This document shows positions 20,034 to 35,685 of a stretch of DNA of 36,536 bases, one piece after another. Positions within the stretch are counted from its first letter, which is position 1; every line of letters begins with the position of its first letter. The position numbers and the translations under genes are program-made. Location: assembly GCA_001563915.1 (NCBI GenBank), contig LKMP01000008.1, positions 1 through 36,536 on the forward strand, in the 5' to 3' direction. The notes under the pieces were generated by a model, which ran no database searches, had not been told where the DNA came from, and was given only the letters and a program-made list of their open reading frames with translations. This DNA comes from Nanohaloarchaea archaeon B1-Br10_U2g21 (GTDB lineage Archaea > Nanohalarchaeota > Nanosalinia > Nanosalinales > Nanosalinaceae).

Positions 20034-20507
20034 TTAAGCATTTGCTATTAGATAACCAAGGAAAAATAAAGAAATCCAGCCTATTACAGACACGACTGCA
20101 GCAAGACCTGCAACTTTTTCAAACGTTTTTACTTTTTCTGTTCTATTCTCCCACTCTGGTGCGAGTTCTTGGAATTTGGGAGTCACCCAGATATTAAGAA
20201 ATACTCCGTTAAGGAATACTATTACCACTATAAACATTTTAACTTGGAAAGATCTTTCTAGGGCCAAGTTAGGATGCATTAGAAACATTAAGAGGCCTGT
20301 AATCGAGAGTATAAGGAAACCTACCCAGATAATGAGAGAGAATATAGGAGCCATCATCGCATTGTACTTGGCATTACTTGGTTTAAGATGCATGTAACCA
20401 TTTACAGCATCAGTCATCAGTACTGCCCCAATAGCAGTTATAGCTCCGAATACGTGAAGCATATGGAGTGTAAAATGAGGATCCAATACTGGCGATAAAT
20501 CAATCAC
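20034..20507 (-). CDS. Four-TM membrane protein with His in TM1 (CopD/DUF2269-like, possibly heme or metal binding)
   Basis: Four hydrophobic helices, HMLHVFG in TM1, K and NG..LN in TM3; aligns by eye to the VKOR C-terminal domain in this window. Confidence 0.75.
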   Translation of the reverse strand: MIDLSPVLDPHFTLHMLHVFGAITAIGAVLMTDAVNGYMHLKPSNAKYNAMMAPIFSLIIWVGFLILSITGLLMFLMHPNLALERSFQVKMFIVVIVFLNGVFLNIWVTPKFQELAPEWENRTEKVKTFEKVAGLAAVVSVIGWISLFFLGYLIANA

Positions 20508-20746
20508 GATTCAACCACCTCTATTTCATTAAGCAAAGTAGTGGCTATGAAATATAGGCTAGTCAAAGCGACTGTCAGAGTCAATAATATTACAAAATAA
20601 GAAAAACTTGATACTCCTAACGCCTCAGAAACACTGAATAAGGATTCGCTTTCAGGGTCATGTGAGGCTACTTTTGTAATAAGTGCCAGAAAGGCCACTA
20701 AAAGACCTGATAATTTCTCCATATATCGGATTTTACATTCCATCAT
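20504..20746 (-). CDS. Small membrane protein (signal-like segment + TM)
   Basis: Two hydrophobic segments; stop overlaps the start of the 4-TM gene; the true start may be the internal MEKL. Confidence 0.5.
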   Translation of the reverse strand: MMECKIRYMEKLSGLLVAFLALITKVASHDPESESLFSVSEALGVSSFSYFVILLTLTVALTSLYFIATTLLNEIEVVES

Positions 20747-20802
20747 TAAAAAATCCTTCTAGCGTCCTTATCTTTTTATTCAGCTTCACAGATCTAATAT
20801 TC

Positions 20803-22137
20803 ATGGATAGAGAGTTCATTATCCCTTCAATATTTGTAGCAGCGCTAACTTTGATGCTGTTTTCTGGCCTTACTTATCTGGGATATGAACATATTACTGA
20901 GGCCTCTGTTGAAGGCGAGCCAGATGTAGTCATTGATATGTTAGCAGACGATTGGTACTTTGAGCCCGATAAAATTACTGTTAGTGAAGGAGACCATGTT
21001 AGACTTGTAATCGAGACAGAACACTCTGAAACAGGTACTTATGATCACGGTATCCACATACCTAGTTTAGGAGTAAACGAGCCTCTTGCAGCTGGAGAGA
21101 CACATGAAGTAGAGTTTATAGCTGATGAAGCCGGAGAACATCAGTTTTACTGTAATGTATACTGCGGAGAAGGACATCATAATATGGAGGGAGAAATTAT
21201 AGTAGAAGAAAACAGTCATGAGGATCATGGCGACGGAACTGAATCTGATTACGAAGATTACGATTTACCTGTTCGAGGTTCAGAAGATGCTATTGAGGAA
21301 TTATCTTATGAAACAGATAGTGAGGGTGTGAAGGTCTTTAATCTAACAGCAGAACACGTAATGTGGGACTACGGAGAAGATCATCTTGGACAGTCTCACG
21401 TGGTCGAATCATGGGGGTATAACGGTCAGCTTCCCGGCCCTGAAATCAGAGTAACCGAAGGAGATGAAGTAAGAATTAATTTTGAAAATAAGGCTCCCAT
21501 CAATACTACAGTTCACTGGCATGGTGTAGACGTTCCAATTGAGGCAGATGGCGTGCCGGGGATAACACAGGAACCAGTAGGAGAAGACGAAACCTTCACC
21601 TACGAATTTACAGCAGAACCTTCAGGAACACGATTCTATCATACTCATGGATCCGATCATACTGATGAGGCAGAACAAATGGATATGGGGCTAGCAGGCC
21701 CTCTGATCATAGAGCCTGAAGAGTTTGAAGAACCTGATGTAGACTACACAATGGTGCTATCTGAAAGAATAGGGGAAGGAATATATCCGATTCAGGGACA
21801 GATATATCCTAACGTGCCTGCTATAGAAGTTGAAGAAGGAGACTTGGTCAGAGTAAGAATGATAAATGCAGGTTCTACAACTTTCCATCCAATGCATCTA
21901 CACGGTCATCAGTTTGACGTTATAGCAAAGGATGGTAACCCTGTGCCTGAAGAAGCAGTACAGGAACGAAATGTCAAAACAGTTCATCCAGGAGAAACTA
22001 TGGATATAGAGTTTGTAGCAGATAATCCGGGAAAATGGATGTTCCACTGCCACGAATTATCTCATGCTGGAGGAGGTATGATCGCAGAAGTAGTCTATGA
22101 TGGCTATGAGGAAGATCATTCAGCTGAGCATCACTAA
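20803..22137 (+). CDS. Membrane-anchored CuA-type cupredoxin fused to a two-domain multicopper oxidase
   Basis: Start reassigned to ATG 20803 (MDREF), followed by a TM anchor. CuA motif H...CNVYCGEGHHNM; MCO motifs HWHG, YHTH, HPMHLHG, HCHELSHAGGGM. Confidence 0.9.
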   Translation: MDREFIIPSIFVAALTLMLFSGLTYLGYEHITEASVEGEPDVVIDMLADDWYFEPDKITVSEGDHVRLVIETEHSETGTYDHGIHIPSLGVNEPLAAGETHEVEFIADEAGEHQFYCNVYCGEGHHNMEGEIIVEENSHEDHGDGTESDYEDYDLPVRGSEDAIEELSYETDSEGVKVFNLTAEHVMWDYGEDHLGQSHVVESWGYNGQLPGPEIRVTEGDEVRINFENKAPINTTVHWHGVDVPIEADGVPGITQEPVGEDETFTYEFTAEPSGTRFYHTHGSDHTDEAEQMDMGLAGPLIIEPEEFEEPDVDYTMVLSERIGEGIYPIQGQIYPNVPAIEVEEGDLVRVRMINAGSTTFHPMHLHGHQFDVIAKDGNPVPEEAVQERNVKTVHPGETMDIEFVADNPGKWMFHCHELSHAGGGMIAEVVYDGYEEDHSAEHH

Positions 22138-30388: not shown

Positions 30389-31144
30389 CTAACGCCTGTA
30401 TTTCCGGAATATATAATCTATTACGCGGCTAGGCAGAAATTTTTCTGCTTTGGAAAGAAATTTAGCTTCAGAAGTGATAGTATAGCGAGGCTTTTTGCCA
30501 TATAAAATTATTTTAGCAAGCTGCTTTCCTGCTTTTTCAGGGGATAAACCCTTCACATCTTCATTTAGTTTTTCTTCATAGAGATCTAAATACTTAGAGT
30601 TATCATATTTTGTTAAATTGGATCTACCATTCTCATTAAAGCCTGTTTTAACTCTCCCTGGCTCAACTAGAACCACATCTACATCTTTCAATTCTCTGCG
30701 CAAAGAATCAGTGAAACCTTCTACAGCATATTTGGATGCGCAATATCCGCTTAGAAAAGGCAAGCCTATTCGGCCAGCAATTGAGGAAACATTCACGATT
30801 TTTCCCTTACTTTTCCTTAGTTCTGGAAGACAGGCATGGACAACGTTTATTGTGCCTATGTAATTATGGTATATGTGTTCTTCAAAATCCTCTATTCTCA
30901 TGTCTTCAACAGAACCTTGTTTCTGTACTCCTGCGCAGTTCACAACTATATCTGTTTCAAAGTCTTCAAGTTGTTCAAAAACTTTTTGACGATTTGTGAT
31001 GTCTAGAACATGTTTTTCAACGCCTTTAAGCTGATCAAGGGCGTTAGAATCTCTATCAACTACAGAGACTTTGTTATTCTTTTTCAGCCACTTTACTGCC
31101 TTGAGGCCTATTCCATTCGCTCCTCCAATAACAAGTATTTTCAT
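30389..31144 (-). CDS. Short-chain dehydrogenase/reductase (SDR)
   Basis: GGANGIG, NCAG, VSS, YCASK. Confidence 0.95.
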   Translation of the reverse strand: MKILVIGGANGIGLKAVKWLKKNNKVSVVDRDSNALDQLKGVEKHVLDITNRQKVFEQLEDFETDIVVNCAGVQKQGSVEDMRIEDFEEHIYHNYIGTINVVHACLPELRKSKGKIVNVSSIAGRIGLPFLSGYCASKYAVEGFTDSLRRELKDVDVVLVEPGRVKTGFNENGRSNLTKYDNSKYLDLYEEKLNEDVKGLSPEKAGKQLAKIILYGKKPRYTITSEAKFLSKAEKFLPSRVIDYIFRKYRR

Positions 31145-32184
31145 TAGTGTAGAGGGCTCCAGTTAGGGATGCTGTCTTTGGCTCTAAGATCATATATTTT
31201 TTCTATTGCTAGTCCTGATAGGCTTGCCACTACTAAAAGTGCTGCATAGGTAGTTAGGAAGTAAGATGGCGGAGCTATAATTTCTACAGTCTTCAAGATG
31301 AATAGTGCGATCCAGGAGACTATTGAAATACTTGCCATAACGAATGCGGCTTTTCTGTAAACTCTATTCTGTCTGCTTTTAGGCTCTTCGCTGTTTCTAG
31401 AGAATTTTATGCCGATTATTTCCTGTGAAACTTTTAGATTGTAAACCGATCCGTTAATCAGTATAATTCCGATTATTGTTAGAAGAGTTAGGCTTTCTCC
31501 CGGGTGGAAGTGTCCTGCTAGATATAATCCTAGGCTTGTTAGAACTACTCCTCCTAGTGCGGCCCATGTCAAGTTGTTTAAAGTGTCTAATACGCTGGCT
31601 TGACGCTCTAGCATTTCAAAGTCTCTTAAGAAGTTGAGAAACAGGAAATCATAGGAAAGTGCTGTTCCTAGGCCTGCTGCAGCAACTAATACTCCTATTA
31701 TGCTTATGGCCAGTCCATATTGGGCCATTAAAGCACCTATACCTACAGCAGAAGCAGGAATTGCAAGAATCATTATCAGGGCGCATAGACTTGCAGATAC
31801 TAGACACCAAGTGCACCACATTTTCAAGGTAAATCCTTGAATAAATGTCAGATAAGCTGAAAATAACACTGCTAATGCGCTTGAAGCAATAACGCCGAGT
31901 ACAAACCAAGAAGGTAGTGTCTGCGCTGTTAATAGATAAATGGAGTAGCTTACAATTACCACGGCATAATACAATAATCCTAGTACTTCAACATCCAGAC
32001 CTAAAAATTTGGAATATTTACTTGTGATGACGTCTTCACAACTTCCGTCCATCGGACATGCCATGCCCTCTACATTAGTTTTCTTTTGGTAATGCAGGTA
32101 GGTGGATACTCCAAGTCCTGCGATTCCGATTAAAATTATCAAAGCTTGGAAAACTGGTTGCGAAAGTGTTGAAAAAAGTTCCAT
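31144..32184 (-). CDS. Vitamin K epoxide reductase (VKOR) family protein with extra C-terminal multi-TM domain
   Basis: Loop Cys pair CPMDGSC, TSKYS, redox CTWC; ~190 extra residues with ~5 TM helices; likely start ATG 32184 (alternative 32202). Confidence 0.9.
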   Translation of the reverse strand: MELFSTLSQPVFQALIILIGIAGLGVSTYLHYQKKTNVEGMACPMDGSCEDVITSKYSKFLGLDVEVLGLLYYAVVIVSYSIYLLTAQTLPSWFVLGVIASSALAVLFSAYLTFIQGFTLKMWCTWCLVSASLCALIMILAIPASAVGIGALMAQYGLAISIIGVLVAAAGLGTALSYDFLFLNFLRDFEMLERQASVLDTLNNLTWAALGGVVLTSLGLYLAGHFHPGESLTLLTIIGIILINGSVYNLKVSQEIIGIKFSRNSEEPKSRQNRVYRKAAFVMASISIVSWIALFILKTVEIIAPPSYFLTTYAALLVVASLSGLAIEKIYDLRAKDSIPNWSPLH

Positions 32185-32270
32185 ATCAAGTAATAGATAC
32201 ATCTTACTTAAATAAAATTCTGGTTTGAGATGGATTGTACTTTTAATCTTCTGGATTTTAGATGTGTACT

Positions 32271-34353: not shown

Positions 34354-35685
34354 TTAGTTAGGAGTTATTTTCGCAGCTCCATGACCATCTCCAAATAAAT
34401 ATAGGGATTCATTATGAAACTCGATATTTCTTAGCCTATGGTTAACAGCCTCATACTCTAATTCATCCTTTATGTAAAATACTTCACTATCAATTCGATC
34501 TCCTTGTCCATCAGTAAGTATTCTATAAACTATGCTCCCTCTAAGACCGGTGACGAAATAGCTGTTATACCATTCATGATCGGGATCATCTACAAAAGTA
34601 GTTCCTGAAGGAGCTAAGGTCCATTCTTCAAAACACTGTAATGGGTCTGTGGTATTCTCAACTTCTATATCTTGATACTCATAGCCGCATTTCTCACCAG
34701 GCCAGCCGTAATTTGCACCAGACTCTATAACGTTAACCTCATCATGCCTCCAAGGACCATGCATAGATACAAAGGCCTGCCCAGTCTCAGGATGAAAATC
34801 AATGCCTTGAGGATTGCGTAAGCCATAAGAATAGACGTAACTGTCTTCAAAAGCATTATCTTCTGCAGGATTTCCATCAAGATCAATTTTTAGGACCTTG
34901 CCTCCAAGAAAATCAGGATCCTGAACTCGCTCATGCAGATCTTCATTAGAGGTTTTAGCATATTCTGAGTCGCCGGTTGTAATGTGGAGATAGTTGTCAG
35001 GGCTTATGGCCAGCCTTCCTCCTGAGTGACCTCTATTAGCTTCAATGTTGTCGATTAAAACTTTTTCATCAGTAAGCTCTTGATCTCTGAACTCGAAACG
35101 AGACACACGATTGTAAATAGGATCGTTTACTTCTTCTTCAGCATCTTCGCTTACCTCACGATCATCAGAGTAGTAGAGCAGATAGATGTAATGGTTCTCT
35201 TCAAAATCTGGATCGGCTGCAATACCCAATAACCCTGAATTCCCCAGTCGTTCAACACCGTCTAGGTTAGCTCGTTTGGTCTCTTGTTCTCCATCATGCA
35301 TAACTACATTACCCTCCATCTCGGAATAGATCACACTACCGTCTTCAAGAATTTCAGAATCCCATGCAAGATTATGCCCGATATCAAATACGTCTACATC
35401 ATAGTCTTCTGCGGTTAATTCGGACGTAATATAATTCCCATCATCTGTAAAAAGAGTCACGTCTTCAATACCTTCAGACGTTCTCTCACAGTGATCTTCA
35501 TCATATTGTCCTTCACTCTCACAGTTCTCATATTCGGTTATATTTGTCCGTATACAGGTCTCATCTTCCTCAAAACTACAATCCCATACTTCATGTTTTT
35601 CAATAGCGTCTTCAGAGTAAATTATCACTAATCCTCCTAAAATAACAACTACTGATAATAGGGCCAGAATTTTTCCAGGAACCAT
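34354..35685 (-). CDS. Membrane-anchored PQQ-dependent sugar dehydrogenase (GSDH/YliI-like beta-propeller)
   Basis: GLLGIA.DPDF, H.GGRL..SPD, TGD, GLRNPQG, DEVN, NYGWP, APSG, R.R motifs; N-terminal TM and 4-Cys segment. Confidence 0.9.
   Translation of the reverse strand: MVPGKILALLSVVVILGGLVIIYSEDAIEKHEVWDCSFEEDETCIRTNITEYENCESEGQYDEDHCERTSEGIEDVTLFTDDGNYITSELTAEDYDVDVFDIGHNLAWDSEILEDGSVIYSEMEGNVVMHDGEQETKRANLDGVERLGNSGLLGIAADPDFEENHYIYLLYYSDDREVSEDAEEEVNDPIYNRVSRFEFRDQELTDEKVLIDNIEANRGHSGGRLAISPDNYLHITTGDSEYAKTSNEDLHERVQDPDFLGGKVLKIDLDGNPAEDNAFEDSYVYSYGLRNPQGIDFHPETGQAFVSMHGPWRHDEVNVIESGANYGWPGEKCGYEYQDIEVENTTDPLQCFEEWTLAPSGTTFVDDPDHEWYNSYFVTGLRGSIVYRILTDGQGDRIDSEVFYIKDELEYEAVNHRLRNIEFHNESLYLFGDGHGAAKITPN

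What the first reader, a model, noticed from the sequence alone, without database searches (positions are those of the whole stretch)
20034..20507. 4-TM protein beside the copper oxidase is a paralog of the VKOR C-terminal domain 11 kb away
Seen by manual alignment: HVFGAITAIGAVLMTD vs GVLVAAAGLGTALSYD; exactly 27 residues from D to W in both; T at W+9 in both; NGVFLNIWV vs NGSVYNLKV; AGLAAVVSVIGWISLFFL vs AFVMASISIVSWIALFIL. The free-standing copy keeps a TM1 His that is Gly in the VKOR-fused copy (~31290-31720). Inference: an uncharacterised membrane redox (heme/quinone/Cu-binding) domain that partners with both a disulfide-forming enzyme and an O2-reducing oxidase.
Basis: partly seen in the sequence, partly recalled or inferred. 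Interest (0 to 1): 0.75.

Follow-up and report, generated by a model that had tools for sequence, protein, structure and literature searches.

The report
Half-CopD membrane bundle, VKOR-fused paralog
The small four-helix membrane protein next to the copper oxidase is a real relative of the extra domain fused to the cell's only VKOR, and both are stripped-down relatives of the bacterial copper-uptake protein CopD, an unstudied family that is often fused to VKOR in ultra-small microbes.

Summary
Window 20034-20507(-) encodes a 157-aa four-helix membrane protein. It is homologous over about 140 residues to the C-terminal domain of the VKOR protein at 31144-32202(-). Support: profile E 2.3e-6 and 5.6e-27, and hhalign E 1.9e-10 in a non-circular test.

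The domain is not wholly uncharacterised. It is a divergent, sub-threshold member of the CopD-like superfamily: 26 of 64 relatives hit Pfam CopD, all below the cut-off, and others hit DUF2214, DUF2269 or DUF4149. Its near-invariant TM1 His aligns, with weak statistics, to YebZ His154, which is needed for copper uptake.

A whole-library search found 433 relatives. Of the 33 listed hits of 300 aa or more, 25 carry an N-terminal VKOR domain. I found no paper describing this fusion.

All 8 Nanohaloarchaeota-type VKOR fusions have lost the His and a near-invariant Lys. The free-standing copies keep both.

Free-standing or otherwise fused copies sit beside the oxidase (2 genomes), beside a cupredoxin (2 genomes), or fused to one (1 genome). 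The oxidase link is not obligatory.

My best reading is a dimeric "half-CopD" copper-handling module (about 0.45). Heme or redox and purely structural roles remain open. Charge bias predicts that the fused VKOR faces the cytoplasm, which I cannot explain.

The parts
20034..20507 (-). Gene for the free-standing 157-aa CopD-like four-helix membrane protein (P0001). It starts at a GTG. Signature residues: H18, G27, D33, S57, W61, G71, F87, K90, N100, G101, P110, S140, W144.
   Evidence: ORF and translation. Five close homologs start at the same position. AF2 pLDDT 96.6 with four long helices. Sub-threshold Pfam CopD and DUF4149 hits. SD-like GAGGTG lies upstream of the GTG.
20504..20746 (-). Small upstream ORF of up to 80 aa. 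Its TGA stop overlaps the GTG start of P0001 (GTGA). It has a signal-peptide-like N-terminus, a His directly after the likely cleavage site, a linker of about 20 aa and a C-terminal TM helix. No family match.
   Evidence: ORF. Overlap read. Homolog in the same position in G031 (L021 4994-5203, 43% identity, E 2.6e-9). No Pfam or NCBIfam hit. The copper-binding idea is my inference only.
20747..20802 (.). Short A+T-rich divergent intergenic region between the small-ORF/CopD-like operon and the oxidase gene.
   Evidence: Sequence read. Promoter function was not tested.
20803..22137 (+). Membrane-anchored multicopper oxidase with an extra N-terminal cupredoxin domain that carries a CuA-type C-x3-C-G-x2-H-x2-M motif. 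The listed ORF starts at 20683, but the ortholog starts at the ATG at 20803.
   Evidence: Pfam Cu-oxidase_3, Cu-oxidase_2 and Cupredoxin_1. NCBIfam hits to NosZ C-terminus and CoxB over residues about 50-177. Ortholog start in G031. Motif read from the translation.
31144..32202 (-). The genome's only VKOR gene (P0002, 352 aa). It has a 4-TM VKOR core (DNA 31759-32142) with all four catalytic Cys (C49, C55, C130-x-x-C133). It also has a 5-TM CopD-like C-terminal domain (DNA about 31189-31728) that lacks the family's His and Lys.
   Evidence: Pfam VKOR 85.6 bits. Single VKOR in the genome. Profile hits on the C-domain. AF2 pLDDT 90.4. Cys positions. Lost signature positions.
30389..31144 (-). 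Short-chain dehydrogenase gene directly downstream of the VKOR fusion, overlapping its end by one base. Probably co-transcribed.
   Evidence: The same VKOR-then-SDR order is seen in G003, G004 and G019 but not in G031, G052, G021 or G055.

Best explanation
P0001 is a 'half-CopD'. It is a four-helix-bundle membrane protein of the CopD-like superfamily and corresponds to the second bundle (TM5-8) of the eight-helix copper importer CopD/YebZ.

Predicted assembly and topology (inferred):
- It is predicted to form a parallel homodimer through TM1, using the conserved small-residue face G21/A25/G27. That gives eight helices, as in CopD.
- Its N-terminus is predicted to lie outside the cell. This places the near-invariant His18 (TM1) and Lys90 (start of TM3) at the outer membrane face.
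- His18 aligns with YebZ His154, whose mutation abolishes copper uptake.

Likely function (inferred):
- The gene is translationally coupled to a small membrane-anchored peptide.
- It is divergently transcribed from a membrane-anchored oxidase that needs copper for a CuA-type site and for its multicopper centres.
- I infer that it binds or passes copper at the outer face. It may take copper up, or hand it to exported cupredoxin-fold proteins.
- The genome has no recognisable P-type ATPase, CopC or Sco.

The fused copy:
- The 5-TM C-terminal domain of the VKOR protein is a true paralog of the same family.
- In relatives from other lineages the fused domain keeps the His and Lys. In this phylum it has lost them plus four more signature positions.
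- Here it most likely serves as a structural or docking module and not as a cofactor site.

Shown: homology, family signature, superfamily placement, fusion frequency and gene context. Inferred: dimer, topology and the copper role.
For: Homology between the two copies: (E 2.3e-6, 5.6e-27, 1.9e-10).

Superfamily placement:
- Pfam CopD is hit by 26 of 64 family members (best E 5.1e-7). DUF2214 is hit by 8, DUF2269 by 5, DUF6644 by 1 and DUF4149 by 1.
- Three close homologs carry a precomputed PF05425 label.
- There is a weak NCBIfam HemJ hit.

Register with YebZ:
- Pfam CopD maps to YebZ 185-284 and to P0001 52-141.
- Three alignments put YebZ H154 in the H18 column.
- YebZ H154A abolishes copper uptake, and YcnJ H295A in its CopD domain phenocopies the deletion (PMC11923076 and PMC13344008, passages read).

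Signature conservation: H18 is present in 23/27, 86/90 and 33/33 of the three length classes, and K90 in 27/27, 88/90 and 32/33.

Copper context in the phylum, across the 18 loci of the family that are not VKOR fusions, 5 of them with a cupredoxin-fold neighbour or fusion:
- A divergent oxidase pair in G000 and G031.
- A cupredoxin lipoprotein just downstream in G001 and G004, with DUF305 and a PadR regulator nearby in G004.
- A 668-aa fusion to a Copper-bind domain plus beta-propeller in G021.

Other copper systems: PF00122, PF04234 and PF02630 were not found in the own genome, which is 92% complete.

Dimer: score 0.77, best of 3 controls 0.00. The mark was reached by 20 of 30 proteins solved as pairs of one chain and by 1 of 23 solved as single chains. 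The runs agree in at least 97% of contacts, and partner pLDDT is at least 87.

N-out topology: K+R bias, and six hydrophobic segments before the cupredoxin domain in the G021 fusion.
Against: - No member reaches the Pfam CopD cut-off (best 30.5 bits against 32.1; P0001 scores 23.6).
- Direct profile comparisons with YebZ are weak: E 0.047, and E 0.073 over only 21 columns.
- Only one His is conserved and there are no conserved Met or Cys. Lys is not a usual copper ligand.
- No CopC partner was found.
- At genome level cupredoxins are not enriched. PF00127 is present in 12 of 17 genomes that have the family and in 32 of 53 that lack it. The family is therefore not needed for cupredoxins in general.
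- The oxidase ortholog of G025 has no such neighbour, and that assembly (89% complete) has no family hit.
- G028 and G073 have the gene in the same syntenic slot without an oxidase.
- The paralog on C22 of this genome has no copper neighbours.
- The copper-linked loci come from one phylum and represent about three independent arrangements.
- The same superfamily includes a heme-b protein, HemJ, so the TM1 His does not by itself point to copper.
- No structure of a relative is solved: Foldseek found nothing at E <= 0.001, VIA-align returned generic bundles only, and the PDB sequence search returned 0.
Confidence: 0.45

Rival explanations
1. Heme-b or quinone redox module, HemJ-like. The TM1 His of two protomers (or His plus another ligand) holds a b-type heme. 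The bundle passes electrons between the quinone pool or VKOR and copper proteins or O2. This is closest to the first reader's idea.
For: - The superfamily includes HemJ, described as a dimeric membrane b-type hemoprotein (PMC13564367, passage read).
- There is a weak NCBIfam HemJ hit (E 0.012).
- A predicted symmetric TM1-TM1 dimer.
- Fusion to a quinone-reducing enzyme in 25 of 33 long hits.
- Fusion or adjacency to electron-transfer cupredoxins.
- His and Lys are lost together in one clade, as expected for an axial ligand plus a propionate partner.
Against: - The own genome has no ALAD, no UbiA-type prenyltransferase and no heme-copper oxidase, so heme and quinone would both have to be acquired.
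- His18 is not among the predicted dimer-interface residues.
- The HemJ score is 15.7 bits against a cut-off of 138.
- The His/Lys face is on the opposite membrane side from the VKOR CXXC face, by helix counting on the model.
- Matches to cytochrome b561 (Z 11.8) are within the noise range for helical bundles.
Confidence: 0.15
2. A cofactor-less membrane module. The bundle is a scaffold, dimerisation or partner-docking unit, or a carrier of some other small solute. Its copper-gene neighbours are incidental in compact genomes.
For: - The fused copy in this phylum has lost 6 of 13 signature positions yet is conserved in 8 genomes with an intact VKOR core.
- Neighbours of the commonest paralog vary: Orc1/Cdc6, DsbA-like, cupredoxin.
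- There is no genome-level link to cupredoxins.
Against: Near-invariance of polar intramembrane residues (H18, D33, K90, N100, S140) across 150 diverse hits argues for a chemical role, at least in His-bearing members. Three independent cupredoxin-fold associations among 18 loci are far more than expected for genes that occur about once per genome.
Confidence: 0.25
3. The similarity is only the compositional resemblance of hydrophobic helices, and there is no common ancestry.
For: BLASTP aligns only 56 residues at E 2e-5. Other segments are non-significant.
Against: Full-length profile matches are in register with conserved polar residues. The profile retrieves VKOR fusions at E down to 5.6e-15 against 1.84 billion proteins.
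Confidence: 0.01

Closest known systems
CopD / YebZ (E. coli) and the CopD domain of YcnJ (B. subtilis), Pfam PF05425
   Same: - Same superfamily by sub-threshold HMM hits.
- The Pfam model maps to TM2-4 here and to TM6-8 of YebZ.
- The TM1 His aligns with YebZ His154, and the Lys and Pro of TM3 also align.
- The outer-face position of the His agrees with the YebZ model described in PMC11923076 (passage read).
- The link to copper enzymes parallels YcnJ, which supports copper oxidases (PMC13344008, passages read).
   Different: - Four helices (or five), not eight.
- One conserved His, not two.
- Below the family cut-off.
- No CopC partner in the genome.
- Archaeal or CPR-type host, and often fused to VKOR.
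'Truncated CopDs' (four-helix-bundle members of pfam05425) noted in PMC11923076
   Same: A single four-helix bundle with only one of the two conserved histidines (passage read).
   Different: Those are proteobacterial sequences that match the Pfam model, and the paper says they correspond to the N-terminal bundle. This family maps to the C-terminal bundle and is not captured by the model. No function was tested for either.
HemJ / PgdH2 protoporphyrinogen dehydrogenase (NCBIfam TIGR00701)
   Same: A small four-helix membrane protein, reported as a dimer with b-type heme (PMC13564367, passage read). Weak HMM hit over residues 50-141. The TM1 'H-x-x-G' motif of HemJ is from my recall, not from a call.
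   Different: The score is far below the cut-off (15.7 against 138). The genome has no tetrapyrrole pathway marker.
VKOR fusions with a fifth TM helix and a thioredoxin-like domain (Synechococcus type; plant LTO1)
   Same: A VKOR core with all four catalytic Cys, followed by extra membrane helices in one chain. Fusion of VKOR to a functional partner is a known theme (PMC4555120 and bioRxiv 10.64898/2026.03.26.714578, passages read).
   Different: The appended part is a 5-TM CopD-like bundle with no thioredoxin fold. Charge bias predicts the catalytic face to be cytoplasmic. I found no paper describing this architecture (searches; passages).
Pfam DUF2214, DUF2269, DUF4149 (TMEM205), DUF6644
   Same: Weak hits from family members. 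The Atlas lists a DUF2214 cluster among the nearest (score 0.84). That these belong to one Pfam clan with CopD and HemJ is from my recall.
   Different: All hits are below the cut-offs, and none of these families has a tested function.

Membership tests
CopD family (Pfam PF05425) | Score at or above the curated gathering cut-off (32.1 bits) | tested here: not met
   P0001 scores 23.6 bits. The best of 64 relatives scores 30.5 bits, and 26 of 64 hit at E <= 0.01. The own-genome six-frame scan gives 24.7 and 17.6 bits.
CopD family (Pfam PF05425) | Eight TM helices with two conserved His (YebZ H135 and H154) | tested here: not met
   There are four long helices and a single conserved His. The definition is taken from PMC11923076 (passage read).
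CopD family (Pfam PF05425) | TM His equivalent to YebZ H154 | tested here: inconclusive
   H18 falls in the H154 column in three alignments, and the register agrees with the Pfam mapping. The statistics are weak, though (E 0.047 and 0.073).
CopD family (Pfam PF05425) | Paired with or fused to CopC | tested here: not met
   PF04234 was not found in the own genome (92% complete) while controls rang. A small N-terminal-His peptide is encoded upstream instead.
CopD-like four-helix-bundle superfamily | Reciprocal weak similarity to several member families over the whole bundle | tested here: met
   Hits to CopD, DUF2214, DUF2269, DUF6644, DUF4149 and HemJ. Clan membership of these families is from my recall.
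HemJ (NCBIfam TIGR00701) | Score at or above the cut-off (138 bits) | tested here: not met
   15.7 bits, E 0.012.
HemJ (NCBIfam TIGR00701) | Bound b-type heme | not testable with these tools
   Needs spectroscopy of purified protein.
VKOR (Pfam PF07884), for the fused protein | Family score above the cut-off, plus the loop Cys pair and the CXXC of TM4 | tested here: met
   85.6 bits against 27.5. C49/C55 and C130-x-x-C133 are present and are conserved in all 8 fusions of the phylum.
VKOR (Pfam PF07884), for the fused protein | Catalytic face outside the cell, towards DsbA-like partners | tested here: inconclusive
   K+R counts put the Cys loop on the positive side: 13.5 against 0.38 per protein in 8 fusions, and 16.1 against 3.0 in 32 others. 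The genome's two DsbA-like proteins, however, look externally anchored.

The most novel reading that the evidence does not exclude
The VKOR-half-CopD fusions of ultra-small archaea and bacteria may be inward-facing VKORs joined to an outward-facing His/Lys cofactor site. With cupredoxins or a CuA-bearing multicopper oxidase, they would form a minimal transmembrane redox relay in cells that lack a respiratory chain and make no quinone or heme. The relay would link cytoplasmic thiols or borrowed quinone to extracellular copper. It could reduce Cu(II) for uptake or loading, or dump electrons on O2. The free-standing copies would be the separate, still-active half of that relay. The fused copy in this phylum would be a degenerate docking half that pairs with them.
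Probability: 0.1. Interest if true: 0.85.

Novelty: new variant of a known kind. Interest (0 to 1): 0.55.

Why it matters
**An unmodelled family.** Current family models leave these proteins as 'hypothetical'. The nearest Atlas clusters carry no Pfam family. The work ties them to the CopD-like superfamily and defines a clear 13-position signature with a testable His/Lys pair.

**An undescribed VKOR architecture.** VKOR plus a 5-TM CopD-like bundle is common among the family's long members (25 of 33). The nearest clusters are mostly from CPR-type bacteria, judged from few labelled members. How such cells, which lack quinone synthesis and respiration, run VKOR is an open question. A fused copper- or cofactor-handling bundle is a concrete lead.

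**A natural experiment.** The clade-wide loss of the His/Lys pair in one phylum, beside intact free-standing paralogs, sets up a natural comparison. The predicted cytoplasmic orientation of the fused VKOR would be unusual if confirmed.

Tried and rejected
- **Structure searches.** Foldseek of the P0001 model against the PDB found nothing at E <= 0.001. VIA-align against 48,161 chains gave only generic or designed four-helix bundles at Z up to 14.8, within the stated noise range for helical bundles. A profile search of PDB sequences gave 0 hits. No solved relative was found.
- **Direct tie to YebZ.** Comparing A3 with a 14-sequence enterobacterial YebZ alignment gave only a 21-column match (E 0.073). 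It did not strengthen the single-sequence result, so the last database search bought little.
- **Genome-level co-occurrence with cupredoxins.** There is no clear enrichment: 12/17 against 32/53.
- **Cluster look-up for names and taxa.** One labelled member was found, from a Patescibacteria bacterium. The other nine had no name.
- **Earlier notes of this scan.** Nothing was found at this place or for this sequence.
- **Papers.** The HemJ heme paper (PMC6093240) is not held, so the HemJ His ligand is from my recall only. One literature search was swamped by the lung disease COPD, as was most.

Full report
**1. The observation**

Window 20034-20507(-) is an open frame of 157 aa (P0001). Window 31144-32202(-) is one of 352 aa (P0002).

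P0002 carries a Pfam VKOR domain at residues 21-148 (85.6 bits), followed by about 200 residues that match no Pfam family on their own.

BLASTP alone aligns only the last 56 residues (E 2e-5). Profiles settle the question:
- Six close free-standing homologs (alignment A1) hit window 31291-31713 over positions 12-151 of 157 at E 2.3e-6.
- A 64-sequence alignment of free-standing relatives (A3) hits 31189-31728 at E 5.6e-27.
- As a non-circular test, I compared A1 with an alignment of the C-terminal domains of the 8 VKOR orthologs of the phylum. hhalign gave probability 96.9%, E 1.9e-10, over 132 columns.
- The E 8e-24 is partly circular, because A2 was assembled from hits of A1.

The same genome (816 kb, 24 contigs, 92% complete) holds a third copy on contig C22.

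**2. What the domain is**

P0001 gives sub-threshold hits to Pfam CopD (E 7e-5, 23.6 bits against a cut-off of 32.1) and DUF4149. It also gives a weak hit to NCBIfam HemJ.

Of the 64 members of A3, 26 hit CopD (best E 5.1e-7). Another 8 hit DUF2214, 5 hit DUF2269, 1 hits DUF6644 and 1 hits DUF4149, all below the cut-offs. Three close homologs carry a precomputed PF05425 label. I place the family in the CopD-like four-helix-bundle superfamily. That these Pfam families form one clan is from my recall.

AlphaFold2 gives four long helices at pLDDT 96.6. The fusion scores pLDDT 90.4, with five helices after the VKOR core. No solved relative was found.

I took E. coli YebZ from NC_000913.3. Pfam CopD maps to its residues 185-284 and to P0001 52-141. 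The family therefore corresponds to the second bundle of CopD.

Three alignments place YebZ His154 in the column of His18. The Lys and Pro of TM3 also align. The statistics are weak, however (E 0.047 and 0.073).

In the passages I read:
- YebZ H154A abolishes copper uptake, and both histidines lie near the periplasmic side. 'Truncated' four-helix CopDs with one conserved His make up about 35% of pfam05425 (PMC11923076).
- YcnJ H295A in its CopD domain phenocopies the deletion, and YcnJ supports copper oxidases (PMC13344008).
- HemJ is described as a dimeric b-type hemoprotein (PMC13564367).

**3. The family and its signature**

The profile search of 1.84 billion representatives found 433 proteins at E <= 0.001 and 96 at E <= 1e-10. 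The 150 listed fall into four groups:
- 4-TM forms of 130-169 aa (27, counting the window's protein and its five close homologs)
- 5-TM forms of 170-299 aa (90)
- proteins of 300 aa or more (33)
- fragments (5)

Thirteen positions are nearly invariant. H18 is present in 23/27, 86/90 and 33/33 of the three classes; the misses are mostly N-terminal truncations. K90 is present in 27/27, 88/90 and 32/33. N100, G101, S140 and W144 are similar.

The nearest Atlas clusters are unnamed proteins, mostly from CPR-type bacteria, judged from few labelled members. One cluster member is labelled as coming from a Patescibacteria bacterium.

**4. The VKOR fusion**

Of the 33 listed hits of 300 aa or more, 25 have Pfam VKOR at the N-terminus at E <= 0.001, and 24 of those are above the cut-off. 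Seven have the domain in the same C-terminal place but no VKOR hit. One has the domain at its N-terminus.

Searches for such a fusion in the held literature found nothing. The passages I read from the VKOR phylogeny paper mention only a fifth helix, thioredoxin-like domains and N-terminal domains.

Within the phylum (70 genomes held), 8 genomes carry the fusion. All 8 keep the four catalytic Cys. All 8 have replaced the TM1 His and the TM3 Lys.

In the three close sequences S57, G71, F87 and P110 are replaced too. G27, D33, W61, N100, G101, S140 and W144 remain. The fused copy here is therefore a degenerate paralog, while both free-standing copies keep the full signature.

**5. Context**

- The small ORF at 20504-20746(-) ends in a TGA that overlaps the GTG start of P0001. 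An SD-like GAGGTG lies upstream.
- A homolog of the small ORF sits in the same place in G031. Both have a His directly after a likely signal-peptide cleavage site and a C-terminal anchor.
- Only 56 bases separate the longest reading of this ORF from the divergent oxidase gene. That oxidase has a TM anchor, a cupredoxin domain with a CuA-type motif, and a complete two-domain multicopper oxidase.
- G031, from another genus, has the same arrangement inside a conserved block: lipoate ligase, oxidase, small ORF, CopD-like gene, adenosyltransferase, ATP-citrate-lyase-like gene. This counts as one evolutionary event.
- The oxidase ortholog occurs in only 3 of 70 genomes. In G025 it has other neighbours, and that assembly shows no family member.
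- In G028 and G073 the CopD-like gene sits in the same slot without an oxidase.
- The commoner C22-type paralog lies just upstream of a cupredoxin lipoprotein in G001 and G004, with DUF305 and a PadR regulator nearby in G004. It lies next to a DsbA-like gene in G002, and next to unrelated genes in G000 and G003.
- G021 encodes a 668-aa fusion of the 5-TM domain (His and Lys kept) to a sixth helix, a Copper-bind domain (23.6 bits against 21.2) and a beta-propeller.

Thus 5 of 18 non-VKOR loci of the phylum are adjacent or fused to a cupredoxin-fold protein, in about three independent arrangements.

At genome level there is no enrichment: 12/17 against 32/53.

The own genome shows no P-type ATPase, CopC, Sco, UbiA-type prenyltransferase, heme-copper oxidase or ALAD. 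Controls rang in each search. It has a single VKOR, one small cupredoxin and two membrane-anchored DsbA-like proteins.

**6. Assembly and topology**

Two copies of P0001 gave a score of 0.77, with the best of 3 controls at 0.00. The mark was reached by 20 of 30 proteins solved as pairs of one chain and by 1 of 23 solved as single chains. The runs agree in at least 97% of contacts, and partner pLDDT is at least 87.

The interface is a parallel TM1-TM1 contact (23:23, 27:27, 31:31) on the conserved small-residue face. His18 is not among the listed contact residues. This supports, but does not show, an eight-helix dimer like full-length CopD.

K+R counts put the N-terminus and the TM2-TM3 loop outside, in both free-standing and fused forms. 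The six hydrophobic segments before the exported-type cupredoxin of G021 agree with this. His18 and Lys90 would then lie at the outer face, as reported for YebZ.

By helix counting, that face is opposite the VKOR CXXC face. The charge bias is 13.5 against 0.38 K+R per protein in the 8 fusions, and 16.1 against 3.0 in 32 others. It therefore predicts a cytoplasm-facing VKOR.

This conflicts with the apparently external DsbA-like proteins and the single VKOR in the genome. I leave the conflict unexplained.

**7. Reading**

The homology and superfamily placement are solid. The function is inferred.
- Copper handling is the best-supported role (about 0.45).
- A HemJ-like heme or redox role stands at about 0.15.
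- A cofactor-less structural or other role stands at about 0.25. For the degenerate fused copy in this phylum it is the likeliest.

'Uncharacterised' and 'partners with the oxidase' need the corrections above.

Noticed in passing
window 20504-20746 (-); L021 4994-5203 (+): A small conserved ORF is translationally coupled to the CopD-like gene. It has a signal-like N-terminus, a His as the probable first mature residue, a short acidic linker and a C-terminal TM anchor. It could be a minimal N-terminal-His copper peptive standing in for CopC. It has no family match and only two examples are known.
   Followed up: partly
window 20803-22137 (+): The multicopper oxidase carries an extra N-terminal cupredoxin domain with a CuA-type C-x3-C-G-x2-H-x2-M motif. 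NCBIfam hits NosZ C-terminus and CoxB over this part. A CuA-like entry domain on a two-domain MCO is unusual. Orthologs occur in only 3 of 70 genomes of the phylum.
   Followed up: partly
window 31144-32202 (-) and the 7 orthologs (L041, L046-L050, L053): Extreme K+R asymmetry: there are no K or R at all in four loops of all 8 proteins. This predicts that the VKOR Cys loop and CXXC face the cytoplasm. Yet the genome's two DsbA-like proteins look externally anchored, and this is the only VKOR.
   Followed up: partly
window 30389-31144 (-): A short-chain dehydrogenase gene overlaps the end of the VKOR fusion gene. It follows the fusion in 4 of 8 genomes of the phylum (G000, G003, G004, G019), so it may be a cytoplasmic redox partner.
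   Followed up: partly
L065 1114-2573 (G000:C13) and L033 16-1035 (G002:C4): A DsbA-like protein with an N-terminal zinc-finger-like segment and a TM anchor is followed by a roughly 170-aa multi-pass membrane protein with a G-C-A/S-A/S-C motif and no Pfam match. In G002 the same pair lies next to the CopD-like paralog. This may be an unrecognised DsbA re-oxidant.
   Followed up: no
L022 3369-5375 (G021:C1): A 668-aa protein fuses the 5-TM CopD-like domain (His and Lys intact) to a sixth helix, a plastocyanin/azurin-type copper domain and a YNCE-like beta-propeller.
   Followed up: partly
L034 1-1449 (G004:C48): A compact copper-type cluster lies next to the CopD-like paralog. It holds a DUF305 protein, a PadR regulator with a Cys-rich C-terminal tail, and a cupredoxin lipoprotein whose copper-site region has Gln where Met is usual.
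   Followed up: partly
whole genome G000: No UbiA-family prenyltransferase, P-type ATPase, ALAD or heme-copper oxidase was detected in a 92%-complete 816-kb genome that still encodes VKOR, a multicopper oxidase and a cupredoxin. Quinone, and any heme, would have to come from outside, as expected for a host-dependent nano-sized archaeon.
   Followed up: partly
window 34354-35685 (-): A soluble glucose/sorbosone dehydrogenase (GSDH, PQQ-type) gene is present in a genome with no evident respiratory chain.
   Followed up: no
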